Assembly (NCBI GenBank): GCA_024637035.1
Contig: JAGXFW010000026.1
Span: 181,600-245,599, forward strand
Reading direction: 5' to 3'
DNA: 64,000 nucleotides
DNA from: Actinomycetes bacterium
GTDB taxonomy: Bacteria > Actinomycetota > Thermoleophilia > RBG-16-64-13
Shown here: positions 15,175-53,987 of the stretch, piece after piece
Numbering within the stretch: position 1 is the first letter of the stretch
How the letters are laid out: every line of letters starts with the position of its first letter
Notes under the pieces: generated by a model
Seen by the model: the letters and a program-made list of their open reading frames with translations, nothing else
What the model was told of the DNA's origin: nothing
Databases searched by the model: none
Position numbers and translations under genes: made by a program

Positions 15175-16272
15175 CTACATCACCAGGTTCAAGGCGTAAT
15201 AGATGAGTGCAGCGGCAATGGCGCAGAACGGCAGAGTCACCGCCCACGCAAGCATGATCGCACGGAACACTTTCCAGCTGACCGAACCAAGTCCTCCCGC
15301 CAGGCCCGTACCCGTGACCGACGAGGTGACCACGTGCGTCGTCGAAACCGGCAACCCGAACAGCGAGGCCGCCTGGATGATGAGTGCCCCACCGGCTTCC
15401 GCGCTGAAGCCGTTCACGGGGTGCAGGTGCGTGATCTTCTCCCCCAGGGTTCGGATGAGGCGGAACGACCGCACCGACAGGTACGTGCCGACCGCCATCG
15501 CGGAGGCAGCTGAAAGGATCACCCACAGCGGGAACCCGTATTCCAGGATGTACTCATCCACATCGAGGCCTTCCCGCGCGGCGATGAAGATCAGGATGAT
15601 GCCCATGACCTTGGTGGCGTCGTTCGAACCATGGCTGAACGACACCCAACTGGAAGAGAGTATCTGCATGTGCCGGTAGAAGCCGTCGGCCCTGTCCAGG
15701 TCGAGACGCAGCCGACCGAAGACGAACTTGCTCATCTTCATGAACAGGTATCCGGTGGCGATGCCCAGGATGGGTGAGATCAGCAGTGAGCTGAAGATCA
15801 GGGCGACCTTGCCGAAGTTGATGCCCGCGGGACCGAGCGCGGCCATACCCGCTCCGAGAAGACCGCCGACGAGCGCATGAGACGAACTCACGGGGAGCGC
15901 CCATATCCAGGTGAGGATGTCCCACAACAGAGCGCCCGCGAGCGCCGCGATCACAAGGTGAGCCGTGGCGTCAGACGCCTTGATCACGCCGCCGATGGTG
16001 GAGGCGACCGCCACCCCGATCACCAGAGGCCCGATGAAGTTGAAGAACGCGGAGATCCCGATGGCGACCTTCGGTTTCAGGGCGCCGGTATAGATCACCG
16101 TGGAAACAGCGTTACAGCCGTCGTGGAATCCGTTCATCACGTCGAACGCGAGCGCAACCGTCACGACGGCGATGAGGAGGATGGTCTCGGTACTCACGAA
16201 CGCACCTCCGCACCACCAGACAGACTCACACGATCTCCCTCGGGTCGGGTTCCTCTGAGAACGGCCCGCCAA
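15175..16272 (-). CDS. Inorganic phosphate transporter, PiT family
   Basis: NGFHDGCNAVSTV and SHGSNDATKVMGII match the PiT GANDVANA-like repeats; polytopic. True start is probably the internal GTG near 16207. Confidence 0.8.
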   Translation of the reverse strand: MAGRSQRNPTRGRSCESVWWCGGAFVSTETILLIAVVTVALAFDVMNGFHDGCNAVSTVIYTGALKPKVAIGISAFFNFIGPLVIGVAVASTIGGVIKASDATAHLVIAALAGALLWDILTWIWALPVSSSHALVGGLLGAGMAALGPAGINFGKVALIFSSLLISPILGIATGYLFMKMSKFVFGRLRLDLDRADGFYRHMQILSSSWVSFSHGSNDATKVMGIILIFIAAREGLDVDEYILEYGFPLWVILSAASAMAVGTYLSVRSFRLIRTLGEKITHLHPVNGFSAEAGGALIIQAASLFGLPVSTTHVVTSSVTGTGLAGGLGSVSWKVFRAIMLAWAVTLPFCAIAAALIYYALNLVM

Positions 16273-16535
16273 TGATAGGCGGATGGGGCGCTCGCGACAA
16301 GCAGTGGCGCGAGTCGCCTCCCGTCGCGCACGGGTATCGAGCCCCGGGGCACGCCGGGGTTCGTGCCTCTTCTTGCGGGCGACGGCTCACGTATACGTTC
16401 CTCGCTCCCGATACCATCGTTAGAGAAGATGAACGTGCCACTCAAGAGGTCGTCTCGCGTGGCACTTCAGGGGGCTCCCGACCGAAGCATCAGCAAGACC
16501 AGTACCGAGGGGCGTCAACCGTGAGATCACCCACA

Positions 16536-18071
16536 ATGGACCACGAGGCACCGGCGATCAAGCCGGAGCGCCATCGTCCCGAGGAGTCTTCAACCGGCTG
16601 GCTGCGGCGACTCAAAGCGCTCGGCCGAGGTGGCCCCATCCTGAGCCGCGCCCGGGTGGCCCTCGTCTTCAAACTCATGTGCGCTGCCACGCTCACGGGC
16701 ACCTTGCTGCTTTCCCCGCTCGACGCGTACCTCGGTCTGATCCTGGCCGTCGGCTTCATCGCGGCCACCGTGCTACTCGACTACTGGGTGTATCGCGCCG
16801 TGGGTGATCTGTTCAAGCGCCTGCAGGAGCGGAACCGCAAGGAGGCGCTCCGCGAAGGGGCGGACGAGATCCATTCCGGCCTCGAACGGATGCTCGAAGG
16901 GGTGATGAGCGGAGGCCGGGCCGAGGGTCTCGAGGTGGAAGCGGTGAGAGCCGACCTCTATCGTCTGCGCGACCTCAACAACCAACTGATCCGCTTGGGC
17001 GAGATCGCCCAGGAACTGAACGCCGCGCTGCCCTACCGCGAGACACGCTCGAAGGCGCTCGACCTCTCCAGGCGCCTGCTCGGAGCAGACATCGTGGCCT
17101 TAGTGGCGGAAGAGGGTGGCGAGTTCACGCTCGAGGGTGTCGACGGCTGCGAACCGGGCGAGATCAACCCCTCCTGCTGCGGCTACTACGACCGATGCCC
17201 GGTGCGCACGTCGTTCCGGGACGTGGCACGAGGCCGCACGGCGTCACACCACTGCGGCATGTTCCCTCCGACCATGCGGGCGCAGCTCTCCCTGCCCTTC
17301 CGGCTCTCGGACACGCGCACCGTGGCGCTGATCGCATCCGGCGCCAGGCCGGGTGCCTTCGACGACCTGAGTTCCGTGGTGCTCGACACACTGGTGGGAC
17401 ATATCCACACGTCGCTCTCGACCGCCCTGAAGTATGACCGTATCCGCCGCGAGGTCGTCACCGATCCTCTCACCAACCTCTACAACCGCCGGTTCTTCGA
17501 GCAGCGGGCCCGGGAGGAGATCGAGCGCAGCCTGAGACACCAGACCCCGGTCACCCTGCTCATGGTCGACGTGGACCACTTCAAAAGGATCAACGACACA
17601 TACGGCCATCAGACCGGCGACCACGTCCTGCAGAGCGTGGCTAAGTTCCTCGGTGACAGCGTGCGTCAAACGGACATCTGCGGCCGGTACGGAGGCGAGG
17701 AGTTCGTCCTGCTCCTCCCCAACACACCGGGCGGCAACGCGGTGTTCCTGGCCGACAGGTTGCGTCGGGGCATCGCCGACCAACTGCACACCGGCCTCGG
17801 CATCCCCGGCCACGTCTCGGTGACCGTGAGCGGCGGCGTAGCCACCTGTCCACGCGACGCCACCGACGTGACCGAACTTATACGTCGCGCCGATGAGGCC
17901 CTGTACGAGGCCAAGCGCACGGGTAGGAATCGTATCGTACAGGCCGGTCTGCGGGAGACGGGGCCACCTGAGGCTTCGACGATCACCTCGCCGAACGTCA
18001 CAGAGACGACCCCGGCGCGCGCAAGCCAGAGCGGCGCGCACGCACGGGAACGCTCAGACGATCAGAGGTAG
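16536..18071 (+). CDS. Diguanylate cyclase (GGDEF) with N-terminal TM helices and a sensor region
   Basis: DPLTNLYNRRFF...LLMVDVDHFKRINDTYGHQTGD...RYGGEEFVLLLP shows an intact GGEEF active site; start placed at MDHEAP (16536). Confidence 0.85.
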   Translation: MDHEAPAIKPERHRPEESSTGWLRRLKALGRGGPILSRARVALVFKLMCAATLTGTLLLSPLDAYLGLILAVGFIAATVLLDYWVYRAVGDLFKRLQERNRKEALREGADEIHSGLERMLEGVMSGGRAEGLEVEAVRADLYRLRDLNNQLIRLGEIAQELNAALPYRETRSKALDLSRRLLGADIVALVAEEGGEFTLEGVDGCEPGEINPSCCGYYDRCPVRTSFRDVARGRTASHHCGMFPPTMRAQLSLPFRLSDTRTVALIASGARPGAFDDLSSVVLDTLVGHIHTSLSTALKYDRIRREVVTDPLTNLYNRRFFEQRAREEIERSLRHQTPVTLLMVDVDHFKRINDTYGHQTGDHVLQSVAKFLGDSVRQTDICGRYGGEEFVLLLPNTPGGNAVFLADRLRRGIADQLHTGLGIPGHVSVTVSGGVATCPRDATDVTELIRRADEALYEAKRTGRNRIVQAGLRETGPPEASTITSPNVTETTPARASQSGAHARERSDDQR

Positions 18072-18997
18072 TTCCTCCGCCAGAACAGCAGGGCCCCTAG
18101 CGAGGACAGGCCCAAAGAGATCAGCAGCACGATGGTGAAGGCGTGCCCGTTGTCCGCGAGAGGCAGGCGCACGTTCATGCCGTAGAATGCCGCGACCATG
18201 GCCGGCAACGACAAGATGATGGTGATCGAGGTGAGGAACTTCATCACCATGTTGAGGTTGTTGCTGATGATCGAGGCGAACGCGTCCATCATGCCGCTGA
18301 GGATGCCGGAGTAGACCTCGGCCATCTCGATGGCCTGCCGGGTCTCGACGATCACGTCCTCGAGCAAGTCTTCATCTTCCTCGTACTTCTTGATGGCGGG
18401 TGTGCGCATGAGCTTCTGGAGCACGGCGTCGTTCGAGCGGAGAGAGGTACTGAAGTAGACGAGGGCTTTCGCCATGGTGAGCAGGTCGAACAGCTCCTCG
18501 TTCTTCATCGATTGCCGGAGTTCGCGTTCGATCTTGTCTGTCTCGCGATCGATGCGACCTAGGTAGCGCAGGTAGAAGCTCGCCACCCGGAACAGGATCT
18601 GCAACAGGAACCGGGTCTTCTTGAAGGTGGCGAAGCTGCGCACCGTGCCCCGCTCGAACTCGCCCAAGATGGGGTTCGGCTGCAGGCAGGTGGTGATGAA
18701 GTAATCGGGATGGAGCAGCATTCCCAGCGGGATGGTGTCGTAGCCACGCTCGCCGCCGACCCGCTCGATGATGGGTATGTCCACGATCACATGCGTGAGT
18801 TCGTCTTCAACGTCGATGCGCGATTTCTCTTCCGCGTCGAGTGGGCCGCGGAGGAAGGCGAGGGGGATGTCAAGCCGGTCGGTGACGCGGTGGAGCTCTT
18901 CGTCGGTGGGACTGACGAGGTCGATCCAAGCGCCTGGCTCGAAATCCTCGAGCTCGATCAGAGCGCCCGAGGAATCTGTCTTGAAGATGTTGAGCAT
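18062..18997 (-). CDS. corA: CorA-family magnesium/cobalt transporter
   Basis: C-terminal two TM helices with the YGMNV signature loop; 311 aa. Confidence 0.8.
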   Translation of the reverse strand: MLNIFKTDSSGALIELEDFEPGAWIDLVSPTDEELHRVTDRLDIPLAFLRGPLDAEEKSRIDVEDELTHVIVDIPIIERVGGERGYDTIPLGMLLHPDYFITTCLQPNPILGEFERGTVRSFATFKKTRFLLQILFRVASFYLRYLGRIDRETDKIERELRQSMKNEELFDLLTMAKALVYFSTSLRSNDAVLQKLMRTPAIKKYEEDEDLLEDVIVETRQAIEMAEVYSGILSGMMDAFASIISNNLNMVMKFLTSITIILSLPAMVAAFYGMNVRLPLADNGHAFTIVLLISLGLSSLGALLFWRRNYL

Positions 18998-19189
18998 GAC
19001 TCACCCCCTTTGCGGACGGGCTCAGCGCGCGGTCTGGAGAGGGCTCGAGCCGGCCCCGCGTGGGATCTTTCCCGGCCGCCGACCGAGGACCGGCGCGACG
19101 CGAAAACACAACCCGTGCATTCTCTCACGAACCGAGGGTGGGTGCTACGAGGTGCGTGGACGCTCGTACCGGTCTGCCTGTGAAGACCT

Positions 19190-19402
19190 ATGCTCCGCTG
19201 TCGGGAAGTTGTAGAGGGGTGTGCAATTGTCACGTCAGCGGAGGCGCCCGTGCCCCAAGTCGTCATCGAGAACCCCATCCTGAGCTCCCCCTTCGACGAG
19301 CCACGCCGCCACTTCCGGTTCGGCGAGGACGGGATTACCGACGAGATCACCGAGGCCCGCCGGGTCAGCTCCTACTTCGTGCCCAGAAGTCGCTTAAGCT
19401 GA
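19190..19402 (+). pseudogene. N-terminal remnant of a restriction-endonuclease / helicase-like (type III Res-like) protein
   Basis: VIENPILSSPFDEPRRHFRFGEDGITDEITEARRVSSYFVP resembles the conserved N-terminus of large restriction/helicase subunits but stops after 70 aa; the opposite-strand vapC follows immediately. Confidence 0.35.
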
Positions 19403-19462
19403 TCCTTGGCATGGTTGAGCCTTCCGCCATCTTGTGGCCCCACAACTGGGTGTCGCTTCTCG

Positions 19463-19894
19463 CTATTGCTCCAGGGCCTCTCCCGGAGACAGCGCCTCGA
19501 TGTCGGGAGATAGACGGGTGCGCTGTTGCCGGTCGAGCGTGACCAGCGTGGCACCGAAACGTTGAGCCGTCGCTCCGTAGACTGCATCGCTGCCCTTCAT
19601 GCCCCTGGTCATGGCGAGACCCGCGGCGGCCTCAGCCAAGGAATCGTCCAAGGATACAAAGATAGCGCCCGAGATGTGCTCCACTCCTACCGTCACCAAG
19701 CGGGCGATATCCTGGCTCCCGCTAATCCTCCGCGAGCCGGCCGCAACTTCTGGCAGCACCAAGGTGGGTAGCACGACCGGGATCCTTTCTGCGTGCAGCC
19801 ATTCGAGGAATCTGCGGCTGGTGACGTGCCCGGCTTCGGTGGCGTTGGCAGCGTTGAGGAACACACTCGCGTCCACCGTGATCGGTCCGCGCAT
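19463..19894 (-). CDS. vapC: PIN-domain toxin (VapC-like)
   Basis: ITVDASVFLNA...LVTLD shows the PIN acidic-residue pattern; start at the internal MRGPITVD; lies 5 nt downstream of the antitoxin gene. Confidence 0.7.
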   Translation of the reverse strand: MRGPITVDASVFLNAANATEAGHVTSRRFLEWLHAERIPVVLPTLVLPEVAAGSRRISGSQDIARLVTVGVEHISGAIFVSLDDSLAEAAAGLAMTRGMKGSDAVYGATAQRFGATLVTLDRQQRTRLSPDIEALSPGEALEQ

Positions 19895-19899
19895 GAGGT

Positions 19900-20160
19900 C
19901 TACCGTCTCATCTCGTCGAGGACCTCGACGCTCGTGAGAGGTGTGTTCCAAGACTTGCCCAGGGCGTCAAGCGCAGCGAACAGTTGGGACCAGGACTCGT
20001 CTGGTGTCAGCGACTGCGCCTCTTCCTTGGGTGAGTACGGCACGATCACTCCAACCGGTTCACCCCGATGAGTCACTATGTAGCGAGCGCGATTCTCGCG
20101 GATGTCGCGCATCACCTCTGACGCGTGGGTCTTCAGATCCCGGACACCGATGCGGGGCAT
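19900..20160 (-). CDS. Phd/YefM-family antitoxin
   Basis: MPRIGVRDLKTHASEVMRDIRENRARYIVTHRGEPVGVIVPY is the classic Phd/YefM N-terminus; start at the internal M (20160). Confidence 0.65.
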   Translation of the reverse strand: MPRIGVRDLKTHASEVMRDIRENRARYIVTHRGEPVGVIVPYSPKEEAQSLTPDESWSQLFAALDALGKSWNTPLTSVEVLDEMRR

Positions 20161-20326
20161 GACGATATCCTCCGGATAATGTGGTTCTAAGAGTAACCAC
20201 ATAGTACTCCGATCCTCCCGCCGTGTCGCTACCCGTCGGCTTCTCATCGACTCGGGACATCATGGACCGCACGATATGGGAGTGGTATCGGTCTTTGGTT
20301 GTACGTTGGCCCAGCCCACACAACGC

Positions 20327-20390
20327 GTTTGGGCAGTCGGCAAAAAGGGAAGTTTCGAACGTTTGGGCAGTCGGCAAGAAGGGAAACTTC
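20327..20390. repeat. Two tandem 30-nt direct repeats (28/30 identical) separated by 4 nt
   Basis: gtttgggcagtcggcaaaaagggaagtttc / gaac / gtttgggcagtcggcaagaagggaaacttc, in the divergent intergenic region between the phd-vapC operon and the lipoprotein gene, and followed by an AT-rich stretch. Confidence 0.6.
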
Positions 20391-20449
20391 ATAATTAATA
20401 GAAATGGCGCAATGGCGAATGCCTGCAGAGCCGCGAGAAGGGTGGACCG

Positions 20450-20656
20450 ATGAAGAGCAAGCGGCGTAGGGGAGTACTGGCATTCGTAGGGTCGATATGG
20501 ATCTTGGCCGTTGCATTGGCCGGTTGCGATGTCTCGAGCACGACTCCGAGTTCAGGCTCCATGATGGGAACGACTCCGGGTTCGGGCTCCATGATGGGAA
20601 CGACTCCGTCGGGTTCGAGCGGAATGATGTACGGCACCACCCTGCCGGAACAATGA
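20450..20656 (+). CDS. Small lipoprotein with Met-rich tandem peptide repeats
   Basis: Signal peptide with lipobox LAGC; mature part contains GSMMGTTPGSGSMMGTTPSGSSGMMYGTT repeats. Confidence 0.5.
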   Translation: MKSKRRRGVLAFVGSIWILAVALAGCDVSSTTPSSGSMMGTTPGSGSMMGTTPSGSSGMMYGTTLPEQ

Positions 20657-20747
20657 TGAGAGGCCCGCCTTCCGCCTCCTCGTATCGATCGGGGTCACCG
20701 GGAGGACATGCATACGTGAACACGCGATTCGGGGAGACATCGAGATA

Positions 20748-20891
20748 ATGAACGGTTGGAACAACATGATGAACGGATGGGACGGCGGTATGGGCGGAGC
20801 GTTCGCGTGGCTGTTCATGCTTCTCTTCGTGGTCGCCGTCATAGTCGGAGTCGTGCTCGTGGTCAGGGGTACCGGCCGCGGAGGGCGATAA
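20748..20891 (+). CDS. Unlisted 47-aa membrane micropeptide (MNGWNNMMNGWDGGMGG + one TM helix)
   Basis: Hand translation gives ATG at 20748 preceded by GGGGAGA: MNGWNNMMNGWDGGMGGAFAWLFMLLFVVAVIVGVVLVVRGTGRGGR*. It sits 90 nt downstream of the Met-rich lipoprotein and is too short for the ORF track. Confidence 0.35.
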   Translation: MNGWNNMMNGWDGGMGGAFAWLFMLLFVVAVIVGVVLVVRGTGRGGR

Positions 20892-21139
20892 CGAGCAAGG
20901 CAGGGTCTGCCGGCGGGAAGGCCAAGAAGGCCACTGCCGGCGCTCCCCTAGAGCGTGAGTAATCTCGCCGCGTCGGCCGACTTCTCACCACTCTGATCGA
21001 CGAAGAAGACGTCCACCGACAGCAATGCGCTGTTGAACTGCACGACCATCTACCCGGCGAGAAGCTGCCGGCCGGGTCTCCAAGGGCTGGGATTCGACAG
21101 GAACTTGTCGGGACTGCCTCGCTCGCCGGGCGGTACCTG

Positions 21140-21370
21140 CTATCGAATCCCTGGAGCATCTCCCTCTTCCACCAGCGCCGCCAGATTGCGTGCATTCCCG
21201 TCCGGCACCGCGTGCACGCTCGTGTGATGAAGCGCCGGTACCCCGATCGCGGCTACAACCGAGATGATTGCGACAACCACGAGTACATCCATGGCGCTAA
21301 AGCCCCCGTCATGGGCGCCCCTCACGAGGGAAGAGCCAGGGATCAGAGCGGCTAGGCGAGATAGCTGCAT
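21140..21370 (-). CDS. Possible prepilin-like small protein (type IV pilin-type N-terminus)
   Basis: MQLSRLAALIPGSSLVRGAHDGG|FSAMDVLVVVAIISVVAAIGVPA resembles the class-III signal G/F-x-x-x-E plus hydrophobic helix, but Glu+5 is replaced by Asp and the protein is very short. Confidence 0.2.
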   Translation of the reverse strand: MQLSRLAALIPGSSLVRGAHDGGFSAMDVLVVVAIISVVAAIGVPALHHTSVHAVPDGNARNLAALVEEGDAPGIR

Positions 21371-21746
21371 AGAATGCCCGGGTTCGAGTAGAGCGAACGT
21401 TCCGCTGCCTGTCCCCAGCTGAAGAGGACTCCGAGGAGATAGGCCGCGCGGAGCCCGGTGGCCGCGGAGATCGTGATTCCAACCCGGAGCTTGCTCAACA
21501 GGGTGCCCCAAAGCCGCTGAGTGACCACGTACCCATCGGGCTCTTGGATCGCGGGCTTGGGCCCCCGGGCCCTACGTCGATCTCGCCGCCAGACCACGGA
21601 GGCTGGGGAACGGAGGTACGTGCCGCCGCGGGCTGAGGCCGCAGGCCCGCGGCCCGCTCCTACCGAAGGCCCAAAGCCGATGCTAGTATTGCGGCACTCG
21701 GCCGCCGGCCGGCGGCGCTGGAAACTCGGAACACGGGGCTGTACTC

Positions 21747-24700
21747 ATGAGACCCACTTTGACCGCTGTCGAACGCGACCTCCGGGGGATCCTCCACGGC
21801 GACGTCGAGTTCGACGCCATCACCCGCCACCTCTATTCCACCGATGGGGGTGTCTACCAGATCGTCCCCATGGGAGTGGTGAGTCCTCGCGATGCCGAGG
21901 ACGTCGTCAAGATCGTCGAGTACTGCACCGAGCGCGGCATCCCGATCGTGCCTCGCGGCTCCGGCTCCGGGCTAGCCGGCGCAGCAGTCGGCTCAGGCCT
22001 CATGGTCGACTTCACCCGCTACATGAACCAAGTGCTCGAGACGGCTCCCGACGGCTCGTGGGCACGCGTGCAACCAGGGTTGGTGATGGGCGCCCTGAAC
22101 GCGCACGCCAAGAAGTACGGCACCTTCTTCGCTCCAAACCCCTCGAGCGAGAACTACTGCTCGCTGGGCGGGATGATCGCGAACAACTCGTCGGGAGGGC
22201 GAAGCGTCGCCTACGGCGGCACGAAGGACCACGTGTTGGCTCTCGACGTGGTGTTGTCCGGGGGCGAGCTCTTCCATGCCGGCTCGGTGGGACGAGACTC
22301 TGAGACGCTCGGCGCACTCATGGCGGCAGGGTCGCTCAGTGGGAGGGCCTTCGCCGACATCCTGCCCCTCCTCGACCGGAAGCGGGCCGCTATCGCCGCG
22401 GCGATGCCGCGGGTGATGAAGAACTGCTCCGGCTATCGAGTGGAGAACGTGCTCGAATGGGGCGCCTCCCCAACCGGATACGGCGGCTGGGACAGCTCGG
22501 TCGCCCTCGCGGCAGCCGACGATGCTTGGGCGCGCGCCGAATTACACAAACTCTTCGTAGGCTCCGAGGGCACGCTGGGTCTGGTGACCGAAGCCACTCT
22601 CAATCTCGTTCCCGTGCCGCAGCGCCGCGCCATCGGTATGGCCTACTTCCCCACCGTCTTCACGGCGGGGGAAGCGGTGCAGTCCATCCTGGGCCTCAAA
22701 CCCACTTCGCTTGAGATCATGGACGCGAGCTTCCTGCGCTTCGTGCGCGAGGCCAACTCGAAGATCGACGCGATGCTGCCAGCTCAGGTGGACACCGCCC
22801 TTCTTGTAGAGTTCGAGGCCGCGAATGACGACGAGCTGGACGAGAAGCTCTCCCAGCTGGAAGGCCTCCTAGCCGGCGGCGACGCGATCGAAGTGAAGCG
22901 CGCCCTCGACCCCGCCGACCAAGCGCAGCTGTGGTCGGTACGCCAGGGGGCGGTGCCCCTGCTCCAGCGTCTGCCCGGCGCGAAGAAGATCGTGGAGTTC
23001 ATCGAGGACGCCACCGTGCACCCCGACGTCCTGGCCCAGTACATGAGCCGCCTCTCGACCATCCTGCAGAGTCACGGCGTCCAAGCGATCATGTACGGGC
23101 ACGCCGGCGACGGCAATATCCACACCAGGCCGATACTCGACATGCGCGACCCCGGCGACCTCAACCTCATGCACCGCATCATGGAAGAGGTCATGGAAGT
23201 GGTCATCGACCTCAAGGCCACGCCCTCGGGGGAGCACGGCGACGGCCTCGTGCGCACCCCTTACGTGCGCCGCGTCTACGGCGACGAGGTCTACGGGGTC
23301 TTCGAGAAGATCAAGAACACCCTTGACCCGGGCGGCATCATGAACCCAGGGAAGAAGGTGGCGAATCCAGCGGAAGCCGGCGGCATCGCCACCAACCTGC
23401 GCTACGGACGGGGCTACTGGACGCACGAGCAATCCACCGAACTGCACTTCCCCTCGGATGAATACGCACGTGAGATCGAGAAGTGCCACGGGTGCGCCCA
23501 GTGTAAGAGCGTGGTGGCCACCACGATGTGCCCCACATACAAGGCCACCCGCCGCGAGCACGCCTCGCCCCGCGCCAAGGCCAACCTGCTGCGCAACGTG
23601 ATCAACGGCAGGCTCGACCCCCAAGCCACTCACACGCTGGCGGCCACCAAGGAGATCACCGACTACTGCATCGAGTGCGGCATGTGCGCCCTCGAGTGTC
23701 CCTCGCGGGTGAACATCCCCAAGCTTATGCTCGAGGCCAAGGCGAAGTACCGCACCGCCCACATGGGCGGGGTCACCGACCAAGTGCTGGGCCACGCGGA
23801 GCTGGTGTCGCGCGTGAGCCGCGCCACCTCGGCGGTGTTCAACCCGCTCGTGGGCAACCCGGTGGTGCGGCGTCTTACCGAGCGGGTGGCCGGCATCGAT
23901 CGCCGCCGCGATCTGCCCTCATACGCCCGGAGGAGCTGGGAGCAGGTCCTTGCTGCGCGCGAGAAGAACGGCGGCGCGGCGGCGGCGGGCGCAACGCCCA
24001 CGTCCGGCGAGAAGAGCGGTACCCAGGGCAAGCCGGTGGCCTTCTTCTACGACGTCTACGCCAACTACAACGATCCCGCGCTCGCCCAGACTATGGAGTC
24101 GCTCCTGCTAGCCCACGGCGTTCCGGTGACCTTCCCGGCGCAGAAGGGCAGCGCGGTGCCGGAGATGCTGTACGGCTACGTGCAACGTGCCAAGGCCACG
24201 GCCGGCTACAACGTGCGGAACTTCGCCCCTCACGTGCGCGAGGGCGAGTTGCTCGTGAGTGGGGAGCCCACGGCGAGCTTCGCCTTCAAAGTGCACTACC
24301 CCGACATCACTCCAAGCGAGGAGTGCTCGCTGGTGGCGAACGCCACGCGAGACTTGGGCGAGTTCCTGGTCTCCCGCCGAGCCGAGAGGCCTGAGTGGGC
24401 GCCGCAACCCGTGAACGAGATCCCCTTGACGGTCGCCTACCATCAGCCCTGCCATCTCAAGACCCAGCAGATCGGCAGCCCGTTCCTGTCGCTCCTGCGC
24501 GAGGTTCCGGGGCTCACCATGGTGGACCTGGACGCCGGATGCTGCGGCATGGCCGGTACGTTCGGCATGAAGGCCGGCACGTACGATTTGAGCATGGAGA
24601 CAGGCAGGCCACTGTTCGAGCGGGTCGCTGCTGTGACCCCCGACTTGGTGGCCTCCGAGTGCAGCACCTGTCGCATGCAGCTGGCCCAGGCAACGGGCAA

Positions 24701-24749
24701 GGACACGATCCACCCGGCGGAGCTGTTGGCTCGCGCCTACGGCATCTAG
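21747..24749 (+). CDS. FAD-linked oxidase fused to 4Fe-4S/CCG domains (YdiJ / D-2-hydroxyacid dehydrogenase-like, GlcD-GlcF fusion)
   Basis: N-terminal FAD-binding PCMH domain (VVPRGSGSGLAGAAVG), central CxxCxxC...CP ferredoxin motifs (CHGCAQCKS...CIECGMCALECP) and C-terminal Cys-rich CCG domains; 1000 aa. Confidence 0.85.
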   Translation: MRPTLTAVERDLRGILHGDVEFDAITRHLYSTDGGVYQIVPMGVVSPRDAEDVVKIVEYCTERGIPIVPRGSGSGLAGAAVGSGLMVDFTRYMNQVLETAPDGSWARVQPGLVMGALNAHAKKYGTFFAPNPSSENYCSLGGMIANNSSGGRSVAYGGTKDHVLALDVVLSGGELFHAGSVGRDSETLGALMAAGSLSGRAFADILPLLDRKRAAIAAAMPRVMKNCSGYRVENVLEWGASPTGYGGWDSSVALAAADDAWARAELHKLFVGSEGTLGLVTEATLNLVPVPQRRAIGMAYFPTVFTAGEAVQSILGLKPTSLEIMDASFLRFVREANSKIDAMLPAQVDTALLVEFEAANDDELDEKLSQLEGLLAGGDAIEVKRALDPADQAQLWSVRQGAVPLLQRLPGAKKIVEFIEDATVHPDVLAQYMSRLSTILQSHGVQAIMYGHAGDGNIHTRPILDMRDPGDLNLMHRIMEEVMEVVIDLKATPSGEHGDGLVRTPYVRRVYGDEVYGVFEKIKNTLDPGGIMNPGKKVANPAEAGGIATNLRYGRGYWTHEQSTELHFPSDEYAREIEKCHGCAQCKSVVATTMCPTYKATRREHASPRAKANLLRNVINGRLDPQATHTLAATKEITDYCIECGMCALECPSRVNIPKLMLEAKAKYRTAHMGGVTDQVLGHAELVSRVSRATSAVFNPLVGNPVVRRLTERVAGIDRRRDLPSYARRSWEQVLAAREKNGGAAAAGATPTSGEKSGTQGKPVAFFYDVYANYNDPALAQTMESLLLAHGVPVTFPAQKGSAVPEMLYGYVQRAKATAGYNVRNFAPHVREGELLVSGEPTASFAFKVHYPDITPSEECSLVANATRDLGEFLVSRRAERPEWAPQPVNEIPLTVAYHQPCHLKTQQIGSPFLSLLREVPGLTMVDLDAGCCGMAGTFGMKAGTYDLSMETGRPLFERVAAVTPDLVASECSTCRMQLAQATGKDTIHPAELLARAYGI

Positions 24750-24750
24750 G

Positions 24751-26017
24751 AGGAGCAGCGATGTACATCGACGTGCCCTGGGATACCGGCTCGGTGCCCT
24801 TGAAGCTGGCCCGAGAACGGCTTGGTGAGGTCATCGAATCACGCACACTCACCGTGCGCGACGAGGCGGTGCACCTGAACGCGATCCTCGCGGGCGGCGA
24901 CGGGCGCTCGTCGTTCGACGAGTTCCTCGATGCAGCCGAGGGCCGCATCCTGTTCCTGGTCAACGACGCCACCCGCCCGACCCCCAGCGGCCGCGTCATC
25001 GAGATCATCGCCGACCGGCTCCGCGGCCGAAACGTCGAGTTCATGGTCGCCACGGGGGCGCACAAGATACCCGGCGAGACCGAACTCGAGCAGATCTTCG
25101 GCCGCAACATGCGCGAGCGCTTCATCGACCGCATCTCGAGTCACGACGCGCGCGACGAGGCTTCGCTCGTGTACCTCGGCGAGACCTCGCGGGGCACCCC
25201 GGTGTGGGTGAACCGCCACCTAGCTGAGGCCACCGACGTCGTGCTCATCAACTCCGTCGAACCCCACTACTTCGCGGGCTACACCGGAGGCCGCAAGTCG
25301 ATCTTCCCAGGCGTGGCGGGCTTCGCCACCATCGAGGGCAACCACAAGTTGGCGCTGGACCCCGCGGCCGACAACCTGGCCCTCGAGGGCAACCCGGTGC
25401 ACGAAGACATGATGGAGATGATGGGCATGCTCTCCGAGAAGCGCATGTACTCCATCCAGATGGTGCTCGATCACCAACATCGGATCCACTACGCCTACGC
25501 GGGTGACCTCGAGGAGAGCTGGCGCACGGCGGTGGAACACGCCGACGGACACTACGTGGTCGAGTTGAGCACCCGCTACGACATCGTGGTGGCGGCGGCT
25601 CCCTATCCCATGGACTACGACCTCTACCAGTCGCAGAAGGCGCTCGAGAACGGCTCTCTTGCCCTGAAGGACGGGGGCATCCTCATCTTGGTCTCGAAGT
25701 GTCGCCACGGCATCGGCGAAGAGACCTTCTTCACTTTGATGGCCAAGGCCGCCACCCCAGACCAGGTGCTCGCCTCGATCTTGGGCGACTACGTACTCGG
25801 TTTCCACAAGGCCGGGCGCCTGGCTCTGATCGCCAAGCGAGGGGAGATGTGGGGTGTCACCAGTCTCCCCGACGAAGACCTCGACGCCGCCTTCATCCGG
25901 CCGTTCCCCAGCGTACAGCGCGCGGTCGACGCCGCCCTCGCGAGGAAGGGGCCCAATGCCAAGGTACTCTTCTTGATGGACGCCTCGATCACCGTGCCGC
26001 GGGTGAACGGAGGGTAG
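24751..26017 (+). CDS. LarA-family (lactate racemase-like, DUF2088) protein
   Basis: FLVNDATRPTP...MVATGAHKIPGE match the LarA N-terminal domain motifs; ATG at 24751 preceded by AGGAGG; start lies 2 nt after the upstream stop. Confidence 0.7.
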
Positions 26018-26198
26018 AACGGGGGCTGGCGCCGGCTCCCCTGTCGAGCTCGCACTTCAAGACCCCCTAAACTCGACTACCGGTACTGCCGCGAGCCCCA
26101 GCCAATTCACCCAAGTGCGCAGTCTCCCGGGATCGGGCCTGGGGCCGTCCCCGTGAGGCGATTTTGAGTGCGCAGCGGACCATCCGGACATCCCTTAG

Positions 26199-26339
26199 GT
26201 GAGTATCATCGGCCAGAGGAACGTGCTGGCCCACGAGTACGGATCGATCGACCAGACGCGCATCTGGGTGCTCGTAGCAGACCGCATCCCGGATATCATC
26301 ACCCGACTCGACGATGCGATGCCGGAACCTCCCAACTGA
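26199..26339 (+). pseudogene. C-terminal remnant of a HepT/DUF86 (nucleotidyltransferase-substrate-binding) toxin gene
   Basis: Translation ...IIGQRNVLAHEYGSIDQTRIWVLVADRIPDIITRLDDAMPEPPN* carries the DUF86 R-N-x-x-x-H-x-Y motif, but only about 46 aa remain and no MntA partner is present. Confidence 0.4.
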
Positions 26340-26371
26340 GCCAACGTCCCGCGGTACGGCTCCCCCTCGCC

Positions 26372-26641
26372 TCAGGTCCCGATCAAGTCGAACAGCCACC
26401 ACGAGGCGGCGAGCGGCACGATCATCAGGAACGCGGCCGCAACATAGCGGCGGCGCCACACGAACAGCGCGGCGAACACGAGGTAGAGAGAACCGAAGAA
26501 GGTTGCGCCGGGGTCCGCGACGCCTATGCTGAGCGGCCAGGTGTAGAGGAAGAGCGCGGCCTGGAAGGACAGCGCTAGAGCCGGGCCGACGTACGGCAAC
26601 TCACTGATCCACCCGACCGGCCGGAGCAGATCACCCTCCAT
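26372..26641 (-). CDS. Small hydrophobic membrane protein (3 predicted TM segments)
   Basis: 89-aa ORF with W/F/L-rich helices and GC3-biased codons; no recognisable family. Confidence 0.35.
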   Translation of the reverse strand: MEGDLLRPVGWISELPYVGPALALSFQAALFLYTWPLSIGVADPGATFFGSLYLVFAALFVWRRRYVAAAFLMIVPLAASWWLFDLIGT

Positions 26642-26911
26642 CGGGCTGTTCGCGTACCAGAGCGCCGGTTGCTGAGACTCCCGTCATCGATCGACCTCCG
26701 GACCATGGGTGACTGCCAGACACGGCAACCATGAAGTTCCGGAGACTGCGGGTCAAGGGGCCCGCTCGTCTCCCCGCCACCGACGACTTCTCAGCGCGGT
26801 CGGTTCCTGCTGCCACACGCACGAAACGGCTCCCGACGACGGATGTCGACGGGAGCCGGGGGGATCGCGGTCAGCGGGGGTGCCGCAGCCCGTGTCGGAT
26901 CTCGTTACAGG

Positions 26912-27445
26912 TTAGGCGGCGGGAGGAGCGACGATGCACGTGCCCAGGCTGCCGGCTGCGCCCCGACCCATACCTTGACCCTGGCCGCGGCCGCCGAACG
27001 TTCCGGCTTCCCCATCCGCGCCTTGGCTTCCGCGAGGGCCGACTGCAGGATCAACGACTCTCTCGGAGACGCGCTCGGTCATGCGCTCCATCATAGCGTC
27101 GGCTCGCTCCTGGGTCAGCGTACCCGCCTCGACTGCTTCGTCGATCGATCCCTGGCGCGCCTGCAGGATGGTGCCGATAAGCGTCTGAGTATCCACGCCT
27201 TTCTCTGTGGCGATCTCGGCCAGGCTTTGCCCGCCGTGACGAGCGGTCTCTAGATCGTCCACGGACATGCCGAGCAGTCCGGCCACCGCGGTGTGGATGA
27301 CTCCGACGCCGGGGTGCGGAGAACCGGCCCATGCAGCCTGAGGTGTAGATCCGTCGATGGACTCGGCGGCAAGCGCCGGTGAAGCGGCGGTGACCATCAG
27401 GGCCAGCGCGGCTACGAGGGTTGGTATGGTCCGCTTGAGTCTCAT
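26912..27445 (-). CDS. Secreted hypothetical protein (signal peptide, Gly-rich C-terminus)
   Basis: N-terminal signal MRLKRTIPTLVAALALMVTAASPALA|AE; the mature part is helical then Gly-rich. Confidence 0.45.
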   Translation of the reverse strand: MRLKRTIPTLVAALALMVTAASPALAAESIDGSTPQAAWAGSPHPGVGVIHTAVAGLLGMSVDDLETARHGGQSLAEIATEKGVDTQTLIGTILQARQGSIDEAVEAGTLTQERADAMMERMTERVSERVVDPAVGPRGSQGADGEAGTFGGRGQGQGMGRGAAGSLGTCIVAPPAA

Positions 27446-27654
27446 TCTCAGCTCCTTCGTTTATCCGCACCGGATGATACCGGAGCGGACTCTGAACGGG
27501 ATAGTGATACTCACGATAGCGGCGAGTCGTAAGCGAACTATGAAAGGATGGTGAGAATTCAACGTCGGACTGGAGGTTGGATATCAAGTTCGTCGGGCCA
27601 GATCCGATCGTTCCGTCTTTGGGCGTTTCGCCCCCTGGTGTGTAGGATGACGAG

Positions 27655-28452
27655 GTGACTGCTGAGATGCCAGCGTACGATTCGAGTAGCCCGACGAAAC
27701 GGGCGACGCTCACCACCGTGATCGCTCTATGGCTTCTCTGGGCCCTGTTGCTGTTCGGCGGTTTCGCGCTCGGCTCCGCGGCGGACGATCCCACCCACCG
27801 CATGCCCACTTGGACCCGCATGGCGTCGTCGCTGGCTTTGGTCGCCGCAGGGTGGGCGTGGTTCGCGCTATCGCGTTCGGGGGGCGGTCGGGGCGATCAG
27901 GGCAGCCCGCGCTTCCCACTGTTCTTGGCGCTCGGCATGACCGCCGGCCTCGCAGGAGACCTCATCCTGGCCGGGCTTCTCCCTGGAGGGGAGAACGTGC
28001 TCGCCGGGATCGCGGCCTTCGGCATCGGGCACGTGCTGTACATCGCCGCGATCCTCCACTGGGCGGGAGCCCACGGTCTCAACCGAGCCGGCCCGCGCTG
28101 GGCCTCGTTCGCGGCGTGGTGGGTGATCGGCGCGCTGGCCTGGTACCTGGTCGTATTCAGAGGGCAGGAGGCAACCGTGCTCCACTGGGCGGCGCTCCCC
28201 TACGCGCTTCTGCTGGCCGGCACCTGCGGCGCCGCCACCGGGGTGGCGGCGCAGACCCGCACCTTCGTACCGATGGCTGTGGGCGCAGCCCTGTTCCTGG
28301 CCAGCGACCTCATCCTGGCCGCGCAGCTCTTCAACGACCTCGACTTCGCACTGATCGGCGACGTGATCTGGCTCACGTATGGGCCGGGCCAGATGCTGAT
28401 CGTGTACACGAACGCGGTAACGCGAGAACCACGCCGCGGGGCCATCACCTGA
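27655..28452 (+). CDS. YhhN/lysoplasmalogenase-family membrane protein
   Basis: Eight hydrophobic segments with conserved GD...LA and FxxGHxxY-like motifs (GIGHVLYIAA) typical of the YhhN family. Confidence 0.5.
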   Translation: MTAEMPAYDSSSPTKRATLTTVIALWLLWALLLFGGFALGSAADDPTHRMPTWTRMASSLALVAAGWAWFALSRSGGGRGDQGSPRFPLFLALGMTAGLAGDLILAGLLPGGENVLAGIAAFGIGHVLYIAAILHWAGAHGLNRAGPRWASFAAWWVIGALAWYLVVFRGQEATVLHWAALPYALLLAGTCGAATGVAAQTRTFVPMAVGAALFLASDLILAAQLFNDLDFALIGDVIWLTYGPGQMLIVYTNAVTREPRRGAIT

Positions 28453-53689: not shown

Positions 53690-53987
53690 GGCTGGCCTTC
53701 TCCTGCGTGACGACAGTCGGATGACCGCCGGGGCGATAGCGGAGATTCCAGCATAGAGAACGGGTCGGACGGAAAGACGGGGAGGTCGGGCGGGCTTTCC
53801 CTCCAGACTGCGGCATCGACCGCGAGGAGTTCCTGCAGCGTAGGAACGACCTCCTGTCGCAGCCGGGCGCCGCCAGCGAATAGAGCGCCCAACGCGACTC
53901 ACCCGCCCACTGAAGCTCCCCCATGGCGCCTCGGTCCGCTCCCGCGGGCTGGGGCGCTTCCTTGTCTAGACCCGAACCTCGCGCCAC

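What the first reader, a model, noticed from the sequence alone, without database searches (positions are those of the whole stretch)
20450..20891. Met-rich repeat lipoprotein followed by an unlisted 47-aa micropeptide (MNGWNNMMNGWDGGMGG + TM helix)
The lipoprotein's mature region is essentially three GSMMGTTP-type repeats. The downstream short ORF (20748-20891, with RBS) begins with a Met/Trp/Gly-rich motif, MNGW x2 and GGMGG, then a single TM helix. Met-rich MxxM/MM motifs are classic Cu(I)/Ag(I) ligands in CopC/CusF/PcoE-type proteins. A secreted Met-rich lipoprotein plus a membrane micropeptide could be a minimal metal-handling or signalling pair. Micropeptides of this size are routinely missed by annotation.
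Basis: partly seen in the sequence, partly recalled or inferred. Interest (0 to 1): 0.6.

Follow-up and report, generated by a model that had tools for sequence, protein, structure and literature searches.

The report
Domain-less Met-rich lipoprotein plus membrane micropeptide
Two tiny neighbouring genes in an uncultured Thermoleophilia actinobacterium are real and conserved: they are "head-only" versions of a copper-protein (cupredoxin) lipoprotein and of a SHOCT membrane protein, so a role in copper handling at the cell surface is plausible, but it rests on context alone.

Summary
ORF 20450-20656 encodes a 68-aa lipoprotein precursor with lipobox LAGC. Its mature part is 2.9 copies of a 10-aa SMMG-type repeat. 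ORF 20748-20891 encodes a 47-aa peptide with a Met/Trp/Gly tail, one TM helix and a basic C-terminus.

Both have homologues. A close syntenic relative (L087) keeps both ORFs intact behind the same TA module. The lipoprotein belongs to a small, apparently Thermoleophilia-restricted family. In that family the same signal peptide and Met-rich tether either stand alone or precede a type-1-copper cupredoxin domain. The micropeptide is the N-tail plus TM of DUF2078/SHOCT membrane proteins and lacks the linker and SHOCT domain. This short form also occurs in a second lineage, with the stop at the same codon.

In a related MAG (L084), a Met-rich lipoprotein sits about 70 nt upstream of the full-length SHOCT protein, inside a Cu(I)-ATPase island.

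In this window the pair lies in a TA-rich 2.75-kb insertion between CorA and an FAD oxidase, with no copper genes in 64 kb.

Best reading: a reduced copy of a copper-island two-gene module that presents Met-rich segments at the outer membrane face. The identity of the genes is well supported. The metal function is inferred only. Decay into non-functional relics is the main rival.

The parts
20326..20393 (+). Tandem 34-nt duplication (20326-20359, 20360-20393) of a conserved upstream, promoter-like element (CGTTTGGGCAGTCGGCAARAAGGGAA). CATAAT follows at 20390-20395.
   Evidence: the repeat finder D2. The element is single-copy in L087. The same GGTTTGGG-N14-16-GGGAAC/TAC plus TATATT/TACTGT/CATAAT layout lies upstream of the homologous lipoprotein genes in L081, L084, L090, L094 and L095. 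Promoter function is inferred. The sigma-70 scan found nothing.
20396..20449 (+). 5' leader with a strongly conserved translation-initiation region (GCCGCGAGAAGGGTGGACCG; RBS GAAGGGTGGA at 20437-20446).
   Evidence: Nearly invariant in nine loci, including the cupredoxin-bearing forms. No covariation-supported structure. No Rfam match.
20450..20656 (+). Lipoprotein precursor, 68 aa. Signal peptide is residues 1-25, with lipobox LAGC at 20516-20527 and Cys26 at 20525-20527. The mature part is a disordered Ser/Thr/Gly/Met tether with three MM pairs. Double stop TGATGA.
   Evidence: Homologues P0001 and P0006-P0013. Conserved in L087 with an in-frame 12-nt indel; dN/dS 0.33, the lowest of the six frames.
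20540..20629 (+). 30-nt tandem repeat, 2.9 copies, encoding the SMMG-type repeats.
   Evidence: Tandem Repeats Finder score 124 / 90; the repeat finder D1 and D3.
20630..20656 (+). Frameshifted C-terminus. Relative to the '...MMGGQTTAP' homologues a 2-nt indel puts the fourth ATGATG (Met-Met) out of frame, so it is read as the stops TGATGA.
   Evidence: Alignment A1 with L081. The same state occurs in L087.
20657..20747 (+). 91-nt spacer. The RBS for the micropeptide is GGGGAG at 20731-20736.
   Evidence: The spacer varies between the window and L087, with indels of 8, 11 and 14 nt. GAGGAGAC..GAGAT(A/G)ATG is conserved in L087, L082 and L084.
20748..20891 (+). 47-aa single-pass membrane micropeptide. 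Met/Trp/Gly N-tail is residues 1-17 (20748-20798), TM helix about residues 18-39 (20799-20864), basic C-tail RGTGRGGR (20865-20888). Predicted N-out / C-in.
   Evidence: Codon-usage likelihood. Exhaustive HMMER search: P0002 (48 aa, 72% identity, E 2.7e-13) and the SHOCT-bearing P0003-P0005. L087, L082, L083 and L086 carry the same short form. Hydropathy and charge distribution.
20892..20899 (+). End of the block conserved with L087: homology stops 8 nt after the micropeptide stop codon.
   Evidence: Alignment A4.
19463..20247 (-). PIN-domain toxin (19463-19951) and Phd/YefM antitoxin (19900-20247, probable start near 20157). Together with the pair they form an insertion between CorA and the FAD oxidase.
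   Evidence: Pfam PF01850 and PF02604. In L002, L005 and L006, CorA directly abuts the FAD-oxidase gene. L087 has the same TA + lipoprotein + micropeptide block.

Best explanation
Shown. These are two genuine small genes on one strand, 91 nt apart, each with its own conserved RBS.
- The first encodes only a lipid anchor plus a disordered Met-rich Ser/Thr/Gly tether. It is the N-terminal 'head' of a family of Thermoleophilia lipoproteins whose longer members carry a type-1-copper cupredoxin domain.
- The second encodes only the N-tail and TM helix of a DUF2078/SHOCT-type single-pass membrane protein. It has lost the cytoplasmic linker and the SHOCT domain.
- The lipoprotein-then-membrane-protein order recurs in an independent lineage, inside a Cu(I)-ATPase island.
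- In this genome the pair sits with a PIN/Phd module in a variable insertion between CorA and an FAD oxidase.

Inferred.
- In a monoderm actinobacterium the lipoprotein is tethered to the outer leaflet of the cytoplasmic membrane.
- By the positive-inside rule the micropeptide places its Met/Trp/Gly tail on the same face.
- Together they would form a thioether-rich surface layer that binds and buffers Cu(I), and perhaps Ag(I), next to the membrane, as the Met-rich regions of CopI, PcoE/SilE or Ctr1 are thought to do.
- They would do this without the redox (cupredoxin) or cytoplasmic (SHOCT) modules of their longer relatives.

Confidence that they are real, homologous, head-only genes is about 0.85. 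Confidence in the copper-buffering mechanism is about 0.35-0.4. The confidence value given for this explanation refers to the mechanism.
For: Gene reality:
- Codon-usage frame preference for the micropeptide.
- Conserved start, RBS and stop in L087, L082, L083 and L086.
- Signal peptide and lipobox kept despite a divergent h-region in nine homologues.
- A conserved upstream cassette.

Family links:
- The profile search links the lipoprotein to P0010, P0012 and P0013. P0012 and P0013 exceed the gathering scores of both PF00127 and PF13473, and carry a C-x2-H-x2-M site. P0010 exceeds PF00127 only.
- HMMER links the micropeptide to SHOCT proteins (PF09851, 35.8 bits against a cutoff of 27).

Pairing and copper context:
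- In L084/L085 the lipoprotein lies 70 nt upstream of SHOCT protein P0003.
- That island holds an ATPase with CxxC-HMA, CPC, YNx4P and MxxSS motifs, a YHS-like protein, DsbD, DUF2933, a two-component system, a second SHOCT protein with an MMGSGFGGMMG tail, and a GGMMG-tailed protein.

Persistence of the short forms:
- The window and L087 differ at dS 0.45 (lipoprotein) yet keep both ORFs.
- L082 and L086 keep the micropeptide behind a lipoprotein-type upstream region after apparent loss of the lipoprotein ORF.

Literature:
- Met-rich domains bind Cu(I) in the periplasm (PMC11840665).
- A SHOCT membrane protein is induced by silver in Haloferax (PMC10694973).
- SHOCT is predicted to be intracellular and membrane-proximal, which fits C-in topology (PMC11237479).
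Against: - There is no metal-related gene in the 64-kb window (tblastn with ten seeds; L001 gene table).
- The copper context rests on one island (L084/L085) plus the domain fusion.
- The other lipoprotein loci have unrelated neighbours: TA modules, DsbA/PadR/HxlR, nitroreductase, DUF4230.
- Micropeptide-only loci sit among stress, osmotic and small-membrane-protein genes.
- The Mets are MM pairs, not canonical MxxM/MxM motifs, and there is no His or Cys in the mature lipoprotein.
- Met15 of the micropeptide is Ile, Ala or Thr in homologues.
- dN/dS for the micropeptide is 0.38-0.7 and does not separate the reading frames, so constraint is weak or the sample too small.
- Both proteins are truncated relative to homologues, as expected for decay.
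- No expression data exist.
Confidence: 0.4

Rival explanations
1. Decaying relics. The pair is a degraded copy of a copper-island module (cupredoxin lipoprotein plus SHOCT protein) that landed in a TA-rich variable spot. The ORFs stay open only because little time has passed or by chance, and they have no function.
For: - Both are truncated relative to longer homologues.
- The lipoprotein's C-terminus arises from a 2-nt frameshift that turns the fourth ATGATG into TGATGA.
- The locus is an insertion absent from 79 syntenic loci of relatives.
- GC is 54-60% here against about 65% in the flanks.
- Micropeptide dN/dS is 0.7 against L087.
- There are no metal genes nearby.
Against: - Both ORFs, their RBSs and the upstream element are intact in the window and in L087, despite dS 0.45 in the lipoprotein and an in-frame 12-nt indel.
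- The short micropeptide, with the same N-terminal duplication and the same stop codon position, exists in a second lineage. There it has kept a lipoprotein-type upstream region while the lipoprotein ORF is gone.
- Cupredoxin-less lipoproteins ending in ...TTAP occur as at least five distinct sequences, so head-only forms are a stable state.
- Codon usage of the micropeptide is gene-like.
Confidence: 0.25
2. Metal-independent envelope proteins. The micropeptide acts like other tiny single-pass membrane proteins in membrane stress, osmotic adaptation or complex assembly. The lipoprotein is a generic disordered surface tether. The Met content reflects oxidative scavenging or has no specific role.
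For: - The micropeptide-only locus L082 lies among Usp, Na+/H+ exchanger, MscS and DUF5670 small-membrane-protein genes.
- SHOCT-family proteins are linked to envelope-stress (PSP) neighbourhoods (PMC11237479).
- The function of SHOCT is unknown (PMC3581485).
- Lipoprotein-only loci include DsbA, PadR, HxlR and YceI.
Against: - The Met-rich tether is specifically shared with cupredoxin lipoproteins.
- The only locus with the full pair and a long flank is a Cu(I)-ATPase island that holds two more Met-rich proteins.
Confidence: 0.2
3. Type I toxin-like membrane peptide. A 47-aa hydrophobic peptide in a toxin-antitoxin-rich islet that depolarises the membrane when expressed.
For: Its size, single TM helix and basic C-terminus resemble Hok/TisB/Fst-type toxins (my own knowledge). 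It lies next to PIN/Phd, and in L087 a second PIN module follows it.
Against: - It is homologous over its whole length to the N-terminus of ordinary SHOCT membrane proteins.
- It sits downstream of, and is probably co-transcribed with, a lipoprotein gene.
- No antisense promoter or terminator signal was found.
- There is no PADLOC hit.
- The 15-nt inverted repeat that could pair within the mRNA is not conserved in L087.
Confidence: 0.05
4. Chance ORFs in GC-rich, repeat-containing non-coding DNA.
For: - Many spurious ORFs of this size occur in the window.
- The antisense frame of the lipoprotein gene is also open, and scores better by codon usage and almost as well by dN/dS.
- There are no Pfam or NCBIfam hits.
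Against: - Homologues exist in at least ten other contigs, with conserved signal peptide and lipobox, RBS, start and stop.
- Longer homologues carry recognised domains in the same frame.
Confidence: 0.03

Closest known systems
DUF2078 / SHOCT-domain single-pass membrane proteins (Pfam PF09851; Eberhardt et al. 2013, PMC3581485)
   Same: The micropeptide aligns over residues 7-45 with the N-terminus (MM-x-G-W/Y-D/G-GG-x-GG tail plus TM helix plus basic stop-transfer) of P0003, P0004 and P0005, which end in a SHOCT domain.
   Different: The window protein stops 8 residues after the TM helix and has no linker or SHOCT domain (no Pfam hit). No SHOCT remnant lies downstream in any frame. It also has a 7-aa N-terminal duplication.
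Cupredoxin lipoproteins (plastocyanin/azurin family PF00127, Cupredoxin_1 PF13473); functionally CopI of Rubrivivax gelatinosus (PMC13308877)
   Same: The same basic n-region, hydrophobic core, lipobox and Ser/Thr/Gly/Met-Met tether as P0010, P0012 and P0013, which continue into a cupredoxin domain with C-x2-H-x2-M ligands. Like CopI, this combines (in the family) a cupredoxin with a disordered Met-containing metal-capture region.
   Different: The window protein has no cupredoxin domain at all. The tether has no His. There is no detectable sequence relation to CopI itself. CopI is a soluble periplasmic protein of a diderm.
Met-rich periplasmic Cu(I)/Ag(I) binders PcoE/SilE, CusF and CopC, and the Mets motifs of Ctr1
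   Same: Extracytoplasmic location and high Met density in a flexible segment. The Trp next to Met in the micropeptide tail recalls the Met2-His plus Trp cation-pi site of CusF (my own knowledge).
   Different: No sequence homology. The motifs are adjacent MM pairs rather than MxxM/MxM/HxxM. The proteins are lipid- or TM-anchored rather than soluble. No binding data exist.
Type I toxins and other bacterial membrane micropeptides
   Same: Size of 47 aa, one TM helix, charged C-terminus, and location beside TA modules.
   Different: Clear descent from a SHOCT-family membrane protein, and no antisense RNA evidence.

Membership tests
Bacterial lipoprotein (Lgt/LspA substrate) | N-terminal signal peptide with basic n-region and hydrophobic h-region, ending in lipobox [LVI][ASTVI][GAS]C | tested here: met
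   KSKRRR, a hydrophobic stretch (Kyte-Doolittle 15-residue maximum 2.61) and LAGC at residues 23-26. The Cys and lipobox are conserved in all nine homologues.
Bacterial lipoprotein (Lgt/LspA substrate) | Actual diacylglyceryl modification and signal peptidase II cleavage | not testable with these tools
   Needs biochemistry (globomycin sensitivity, mass spectrometry).
SHOCT-domain proteins (PF09851) | Presence of the roughly 28-aa bi-helical SHOCT domain | tested here: not met
   No Pfam hit for the 47-aa protein. The protein ends 8 aa after the TM helix. tblastn with three SHOCT C-termini finds nothing in 20700-21800.
SHOCT-domain proteins (PF09851) | Homology of the N-tail plus TM region to DUF2078-type members | tested here: met
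   phmmer against 1.84 billion representatives: P0003 E 2.4e-7, P0004 1.2e-4, P0005 1.0e-3. P0003 scores 35.8 bits on PF09851 against a cutoff of 27.
Cupredoxins (PF00127 / PF13473) | Greek-key cupredoxin domain with His, Cys, His and Met type-1 copper ligands | tested here: not met
   The window lipoprotein is 68 aa with no Pfam hit and no Cys or His after the lipobox Cys.
Cupredoxins (PF00127 / PF13473) | Homology of the signal peptide plus Met-rich tether to cupredoxin-bearing lipoproteins | tested here: met
   The profile of four short lipoproteins hits P0010 (5.5e-11), P0012 (8.3e-7) and P0013 (2.4e-4). P0012 and P0013 exceed the Pfam gathering scores for both models, P0010 for PF00127 only.
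PcoE/SilE, CusF, CopC metal-binding families | Sequence membership (Pfam models) and canonical MxxM/MxM/HxxM motifs | tested here: not met
   No Pfam hit at E up to 1. The motifs are MM pairs spaced about 10 residues apart.
PcoE/SilE, CusF, CopC metal-binding families | Cu(I)/Ag(I) binding | not testable with these tools
   Needs peptide binding assays.
Copper-resistance island component | Located next to copA/csoR/cop genes | tested here: not met
   Not met in this window: no hit to CopA, CsoR, CopZ, YHS, DUF2933, cupredoxin, DsbD or the island's two-component system. Met only for the homologous pair in L084/L085.
Type I toxin-antitoxin | Small hydrophobic toxin with an overlapping or adjacent antisense RNA | tested here: inconclusive
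   The peptide features fit. No promoter-like or terminator-like signal supports an antisense RNA, and there is no RNA-seq.
Known RNA families / riboswitch in the leader | Rfam match or covariation-supported structure | tested here: not met
   Rfam gathering search of the whole window gave 0 hits. RNAalifold on seven leaders gave 6 pairs with 0 compensatory changes.

The most novel reading that the evidence does not exclude
The disordered Met-rich tether and the Met/Trp-tailed TM peptide are themselves the functional units. Parallel loss of the cupredoxin and SHOCT domains would have produced a minimal, fold-less two-peptide Cu(I)/Ag(I) buffer anchored at the outer face of the membrane. It would be carried as a small mobile cassette with its own conserved promoter and leader, able to move between a copper island and TA-rich variable loci.
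Probability: 0.2. Interest if true: 0.55.

Novelty: new variant of a known kind. Interest (0 to 1): 0.4.

Why it matters
If the head-only forms are functional, the Met-rich tethers of cupredoxin lipoproteins and the Gly/Met/aromatic N-tails of DUF2078/SHOCT proteins would be working modules in their own right. That would give a first functional handle on the SHOCT family, whose function has been unknown since 2013. It would also add a very small, easily synthesised peptide pair to the set of extracytoplasmic Cu(I) binders.

It is also a clean example of real genes under 70 aa that automatic annotation handles inconsistently: one was called and the other truncated on an identical public contig.

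If they are relics, the locus is simply a record of how copper-island fragments are scattered into TA-rich hot spots.

Tried and rejected
1. Word-indexed protein search with the micropeptide found nothing. The exhaustive HMMER search was needed.
2. Synteny search with the FAD oxidase gave 79 loci of relatives. None encodes either small protein, so the pair is not part of the ancestral CorA / FAD-oxidase neighbourhood.
3. No SHOCT-domain remnant lies downstream of the micropeptide in the window or in L082.
4. The long +2 frame ORF (20497-20748), whose TAA overlaps the micropeptide ATG, was considered as a frameshift-restored lipoprotein with translational coupling. Its tail is not conserved with L087 and has non-coding codon statistics.
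5. The antisense ORF 20395-20640 is open in the homologues too and scores well by codon usage. I rejected it because the sense strand keeps a signal peptide and lipobox and continues into cupredoxin domains in longer homologues.
6. The 15-nt perfect inverted repeat linking the two ORFs has 4 of 15 pairs broken in L087.
7. No leader RNA structure or riboswitch: no Rfam hit and no covariation.
8. No link to defence systems or phages, no hit in plasmids, no solved structure, no NCBIfam family.
9. A RiPP precursor was considered and dropped. No modifying enzymes are nearby (gene table) and the peptide is clearly homologous to membrane proteins.
10. dN/dS as a proof of frame is uninformative for the micropeptide at this length.
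Full report
**1. What is in the sequence**

ORF1 (20450-20656, 68 aa):
- It starts with a basic n-region (MKSKRRRG), then a hydrophobic core and the lipobox LAGC at residues 23-26.
- From Cys26 on it is Ser/Thr/Gly/Pro/Met only.
- It is built from a 30-nt unit repeated 2.9 times at 20540-20629 (Tandem Repeats Finder; the repeat finder D1 and D3).
- The mature part has six Met in 43 residues, all as adjacent MM pairs. Trusted long ORFs of the window have 1.9% Met (P about 1.5e-4).

ORF2 (20748-20891, 47 aa):
- GGGGAG lies 11 nt upstream of the ATG.
- It begins with a 21-nt internal duplication giving MNGWNN / MMNGWDG (D5).
- It has one strongly hydrophobic helix (Kyte-Doolittle 19-residue mean 3.23) and ends in RGTGRGGR.
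- The charge distribution predicts N-out, C-in.

ORFs of this size are common by chance in this GC-rich window, so the rest of the work asked whether these two are genes.

**2. Are they genes?**

A codon-usage likelihood trained on 18 long ORFs of the window prefers the annotated frame of ORF2 over the five others by at least 11.5 nats. That is comparable with the neighbouring 86-aa Phd antitoxin.

For ORF1 the composition is too biased for this test, and an antisense frame scores better. However, the sense strand is the one that keeps a signal peptide and lipobox in every homologue, and it runs on into a recognised domain in longer homologues (see section 4).

A public Logan contig (L001) is 100% identical to window 16018-30891. 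Its automatic gene calls include the 47-aa ORF but only an internal 31-aa piece of ORF1.

Pfam, NCBIfam, PADLOC, PHROGs, PDB sequences and Rfam give nothing for either ORF or for the region.

**3. Organism and locus**

The flanking 1000-aa FAD-linked oxidase finds its best relatives (79% identity) in Thermoleophilia / Gaiellales-like actinobacterial MAGs.

In L002, L005 and L006 the CorA gene (window 18062-18997, minus strand) lies directly next to the oxidase gene. In the window the two are separated by 2.75 kb. This stretch holds a PIN/Phd toxin-antitoxin pair, the two small ORFs, and about 850 nt of unique DNA. L003 and L004 have other TA modules at the same spot.

None of the 79 syntenic loci encodes a relative of either small protein. 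GC drops to 54-60% across the small genes, against about 65% in the flanks. So the pair lies in a variable insertion hot spot.

**4. Homologues of the lipoprotein**

The first search found one relative, P0001. Its contig, L081, shows the gene between TA modules and without a micropeptide.

A profile of four short lipoproteins then found nine proteins.
- Five are stand-alone Met-rich lipoproteins: P0001 and P0006-P0009. Their lengths run from 64 to 114 aa including upstream ORF-call extensions, and all end in ...TTAP.
- P0011 (81 aa, from a 670-nt contig) is related but ends differently.
- Three (P0010, P0012, P0013; 138-149 aa) have the same signal peptide, lipobox and SxMMG tether, followed by a cupredoxin domain. 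P0012 and P0013 exceed the gathering scores of both PF00127 and PF13473. P0010 exceeds PF00127 only (22 bits against 21.2).
- P0012 and P0013 carry a C-x2-H-x2-M motif, the amicyanin-like type-1 copper spacing (my own knowledge).

The window protein is therefore the 'head' of a cupredoxin-lipoprotein family without the cupredoxin.

Compared with the ...TTAP forms, a 2-nt indel shifts the frame just before the fourth ATGATG, which is then read as the double stop TGATGA (alignment A1).

All short-form genes share an upstream cassette:
- GGTTTGGG, then 14-16 nt, then GGGAAC/GGGTAC;
- an AT-rich hexamer (TATATT, TACTGT or CATAAT);
- a leader of about 55 nt;
- a nearly invariant GCGCGAAGGGTGGACCGATGAA around the start codon.

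In the window the first part of this cassette is tandemly duplicated (34 nt x 2, 20326-20393). It is single-copy in L087. I could not show that it is a promoter, and the leader has no covariation-supported structure.

**5. Homologues of the micropeptide**

The word-indexed search found nothing. An exhaustive phmmer search of 1.84 billion representatives found four proteins.
- P0002 is 48 aa, 72% identical and has the same architecture.
- P0003-P0005 are 91-124 aa. In them the same tail and TM helix are followed by a Pro/Ser-rich linker and a SHOCT domain (PF09851, 35.8 bits for P0003).

The micropeptide is thus a SHOCT-less member of the former DUF2078 family. Nothing resembling a SHOCT domain follows the stop in the window or in L082.

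The window, L087 and L082 genes share the N-terminal 7-aa duplication and stop at the same codon, so the short form arose once and has persisted (alignments A2 and A4).

In L082, L083 and L086 the short gene stands without a lipoprotein gene. Its upstream region is about 71% identical over 56 nt to the upstream region of the cupredoxin-lipoprotein gene of L092. That suggests the lipoprotein ORF was deleted while the expression signals were kept.

**6. Is the pairing conserved?**

Yes, in two lineages.

First lineage: L087, a 338-kb metagenome contig, is a close syntenic relative. It reads CorA / PIN / Phd / lipoprotein / micropeptide / a second PIN module / FAD oxidase. Alignment A4 shows:
- the upstream element, RBSs, both ORFs and both stop positions are conserved;
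- the lipoprotein repeat has an in-frame 12-nt indel;
- the inter-ORF spacer has indels of 8, 11 and 14 nt;
- homology ends 8 nt after the micropeptide stop.

Second lineage: in L084/L085 a ...TTAP lipoprotein lies 70 nt upstream of the full-length SHOCT protein P0003. L084 comes from MAG GCA_021802965.1, the same MAG as the syntenic locus L006.

That locus is a copper island. It holds:
- a P1B ATPase with CxxC-HMA, CPC, YNx4P and MxxSS motifs, the Cu(I) signature (motifs; their interpretation is my own knowledge);
- a YHS-like protein, DsbD and DUF2933;
- a histidine kinase and an OmpR-type regulator;
- a second SHOCT protein with an MMGSGFGGMMGSGFGGWGG tail;
- a 134-aa protein ending in GGMMGG repeats.

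Elsewhere each gene occurs alone in unrelated contexts. P0004 follows a CorA gene. The 64-kb window has no hit to ten copper-island seed proteins.

**7. Selection**

Window against L087:

| Gene | dS | dN/dS |
|---|---|---|
| CorA | 0.70 | 0.11 |
| FAD oxidase | 0.78 | 0.18 |
| Lipoprotein | 0.45 | 0.33 |
| Micropeptide | 0.15 | 0.70 |
| PIN and Phd | about 1.4 | 0.28 and 0.17 |

- For the lipoprotein, 0.33 is the lowest of the six frames, with the co-phased antisense frame at 0.40.
- For the micropeptide, the counts are only 4.5 synonymous and 10.5 mostly conservative non-synonymous changes. Against L082 its ratio is 0.38.
- For the micropeptide these ratios do not separate the frames, so they are weak evidence.
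- The low dS of the micropeptide relative to the genome baseline is unexplained. Recent exchange of this segment or nucleotide-level constraint are both possible.

**8. Mechanism**

Shown: two small genes that are head-only relatives of a cupredoxin lipoprotein and a SHOCT membrane protein; the gene order recurs, once inside a copper island.

Inferred: both products expose Met-rich, disordered segments on the outer face of the cytoplasmic membrane. The lipoprotein does so through its lipid anchor. The micropeptide does so through N-out topology, which agrees with the prediction that SHOCT is intracellular (PMC11237479).

Met-rich domains bind Cu(I) in the periplasm (PMC11840665). The cupredoxin-like CopI is described as a modular copper buffer that uses disordered His/Met regions (PMC13308877). 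A SHOCT membrane protein is induced by silver in Haloferax (PMC10694973).

The most likely function is therefore local Cu(I)/Ag(I) capture or buffering. I put this at about 0.35-0.4.

The case is weaker for the micropeptide than for the lipoprotein. Its Met15 is not conserved, and in the long forms the MM is just the N-terminus.

Rivals:
- non-functional relics of a copper-island module (0.25);
- metal-independent envelope or stress proteins (0.2);
- a type I toxin-like peptide (0.05);
- chance ORFs (0.03).

**9. Comparison and novelty**

The pair is not a member of the SHOCT, cupredoxin, PcoE/SilE, CusF or CopC families by their defining features. The domains are absent and there are no Pfam hits. 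It is demonstrably related to the first two through the N-terminal regions.

My searches of the paper library for SHOCT, copper and DUF2078 found no paper describing the Met-rich lipoprotein family, its pairing with SHOCT proteins, or SHOCT-less short forms.

I class it as a new, domain-less variant of known kinds. It is rare: four hits among 1.84 billion representatives and nine among 5.8 billion proteins. It is probably lineage-restricted. The specialist interest is moderate and depends entirely on experimental proof of function.

Noticed in passing
window 20326-20393: A 34-nt tandem duplication of an upstream element. The element is single-copy in L087 and conserved (GGTTTGGG-N14-16-GGGAAC plus an AT-rich hexamer) upstream of all the short lipoprotein genes. 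It could be a duplicated promoter or operator. The function is unknown.
   Followed up: partly
window 20535-20549 and 20845-20859: A perfect 15-nt inverted repeat with one arm in each small ORF, 295 nt apart. Only about 1% of shuffles reach this length, but 4 of the 15 pairs are broken in the close relative L087, so it is probably not a conserved RNA structure.
   Followed up: yes
window 18998-21746: The CorA / FAD-oxidase intergenic position is an insertion hot spot. Relatives L002, L005 and L006 have nothing there. The window and L087 have PIN/Phd plus the small gene pair. L087 adds a second PIN module, and L003 and L004 carry other TA modules.
   Followed up: partly
window 20748-20891 against L087 6001-6144: Synonymous divergence of the micropeptide gene (dS 0.15) is far below that of the flanking core genes (0.70-0.78), while the adjacent PIN/Phd genes are far above (about 1.4). 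The islet is a mosaic of different ages. Recent exchange or nucleotide-level constraint on the micropeptide gene is unexplained.
   Followed up: partly
window 20497-20748 (+2 frame): An 83-aa alternative-frame ORF runs from inside the lipoprotein gene to a TAA that overlaps the micropeptide ATG (ATAATG). The equivalent frame is also open in L087. Its tail is not conserved and looks non-coding, but it is the frame the ancestral fourth MM repeat would have used.
   Followed up: yes
window 53815-53853 (+): A 13-aa stretch, IDREEFLQRRNDL, is 92% identical to the SHOCT domain of P0003. It lies in a frame without a start codon, in what is probably the intergenic region upstream of a minus-strand gene whose likely ATG is at 53690. 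It may be a SHOCT gene fragment or chance.
   Followed up: partly
window 21140-21511 (-): A 123-aa ORF whose C-terminal half (MDVLVVVAIISVVAAIGVPA...) weakly resembles a prepilin N-terminal methylation/TM motif (Pfam N_methyl E 0.096; PHROG pilin 3e-4). It lies in the DNA that is unique to the window relative to L087. It is unclear whether it is a gene.
   Followed up: no
L084 5867-7322 (-): The copper island of the related MAG holds further uncharacterised Met-rich proteins. One is a 134-aa secreted protein ending in GGMMGGSAAAGGMMGSSGAGGMMGGSI. Another is a second SHOCT protein with an MMGSGFGGMMGSGFGGWGG tail, next to a YHS-like protein.
   Followed up: partly
L082 3904-4053 and 5675-5824; L086 690-836: The micropeptide-only loci have one or two DUF5670 49-aa membrane-protein genes next to the micropeptide gene, among Usp, Na+/H+ exchanger and MscS genes. 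This is a cluster of very small membrane proteins.
   Followed up: no
window 26199-26339 (L001 10182-10322): A 46-aa gene call with a HepT-like (PF01934) hit just after the LarA-like gene. It may be a truncated HepT toxin.
   Followed up: no
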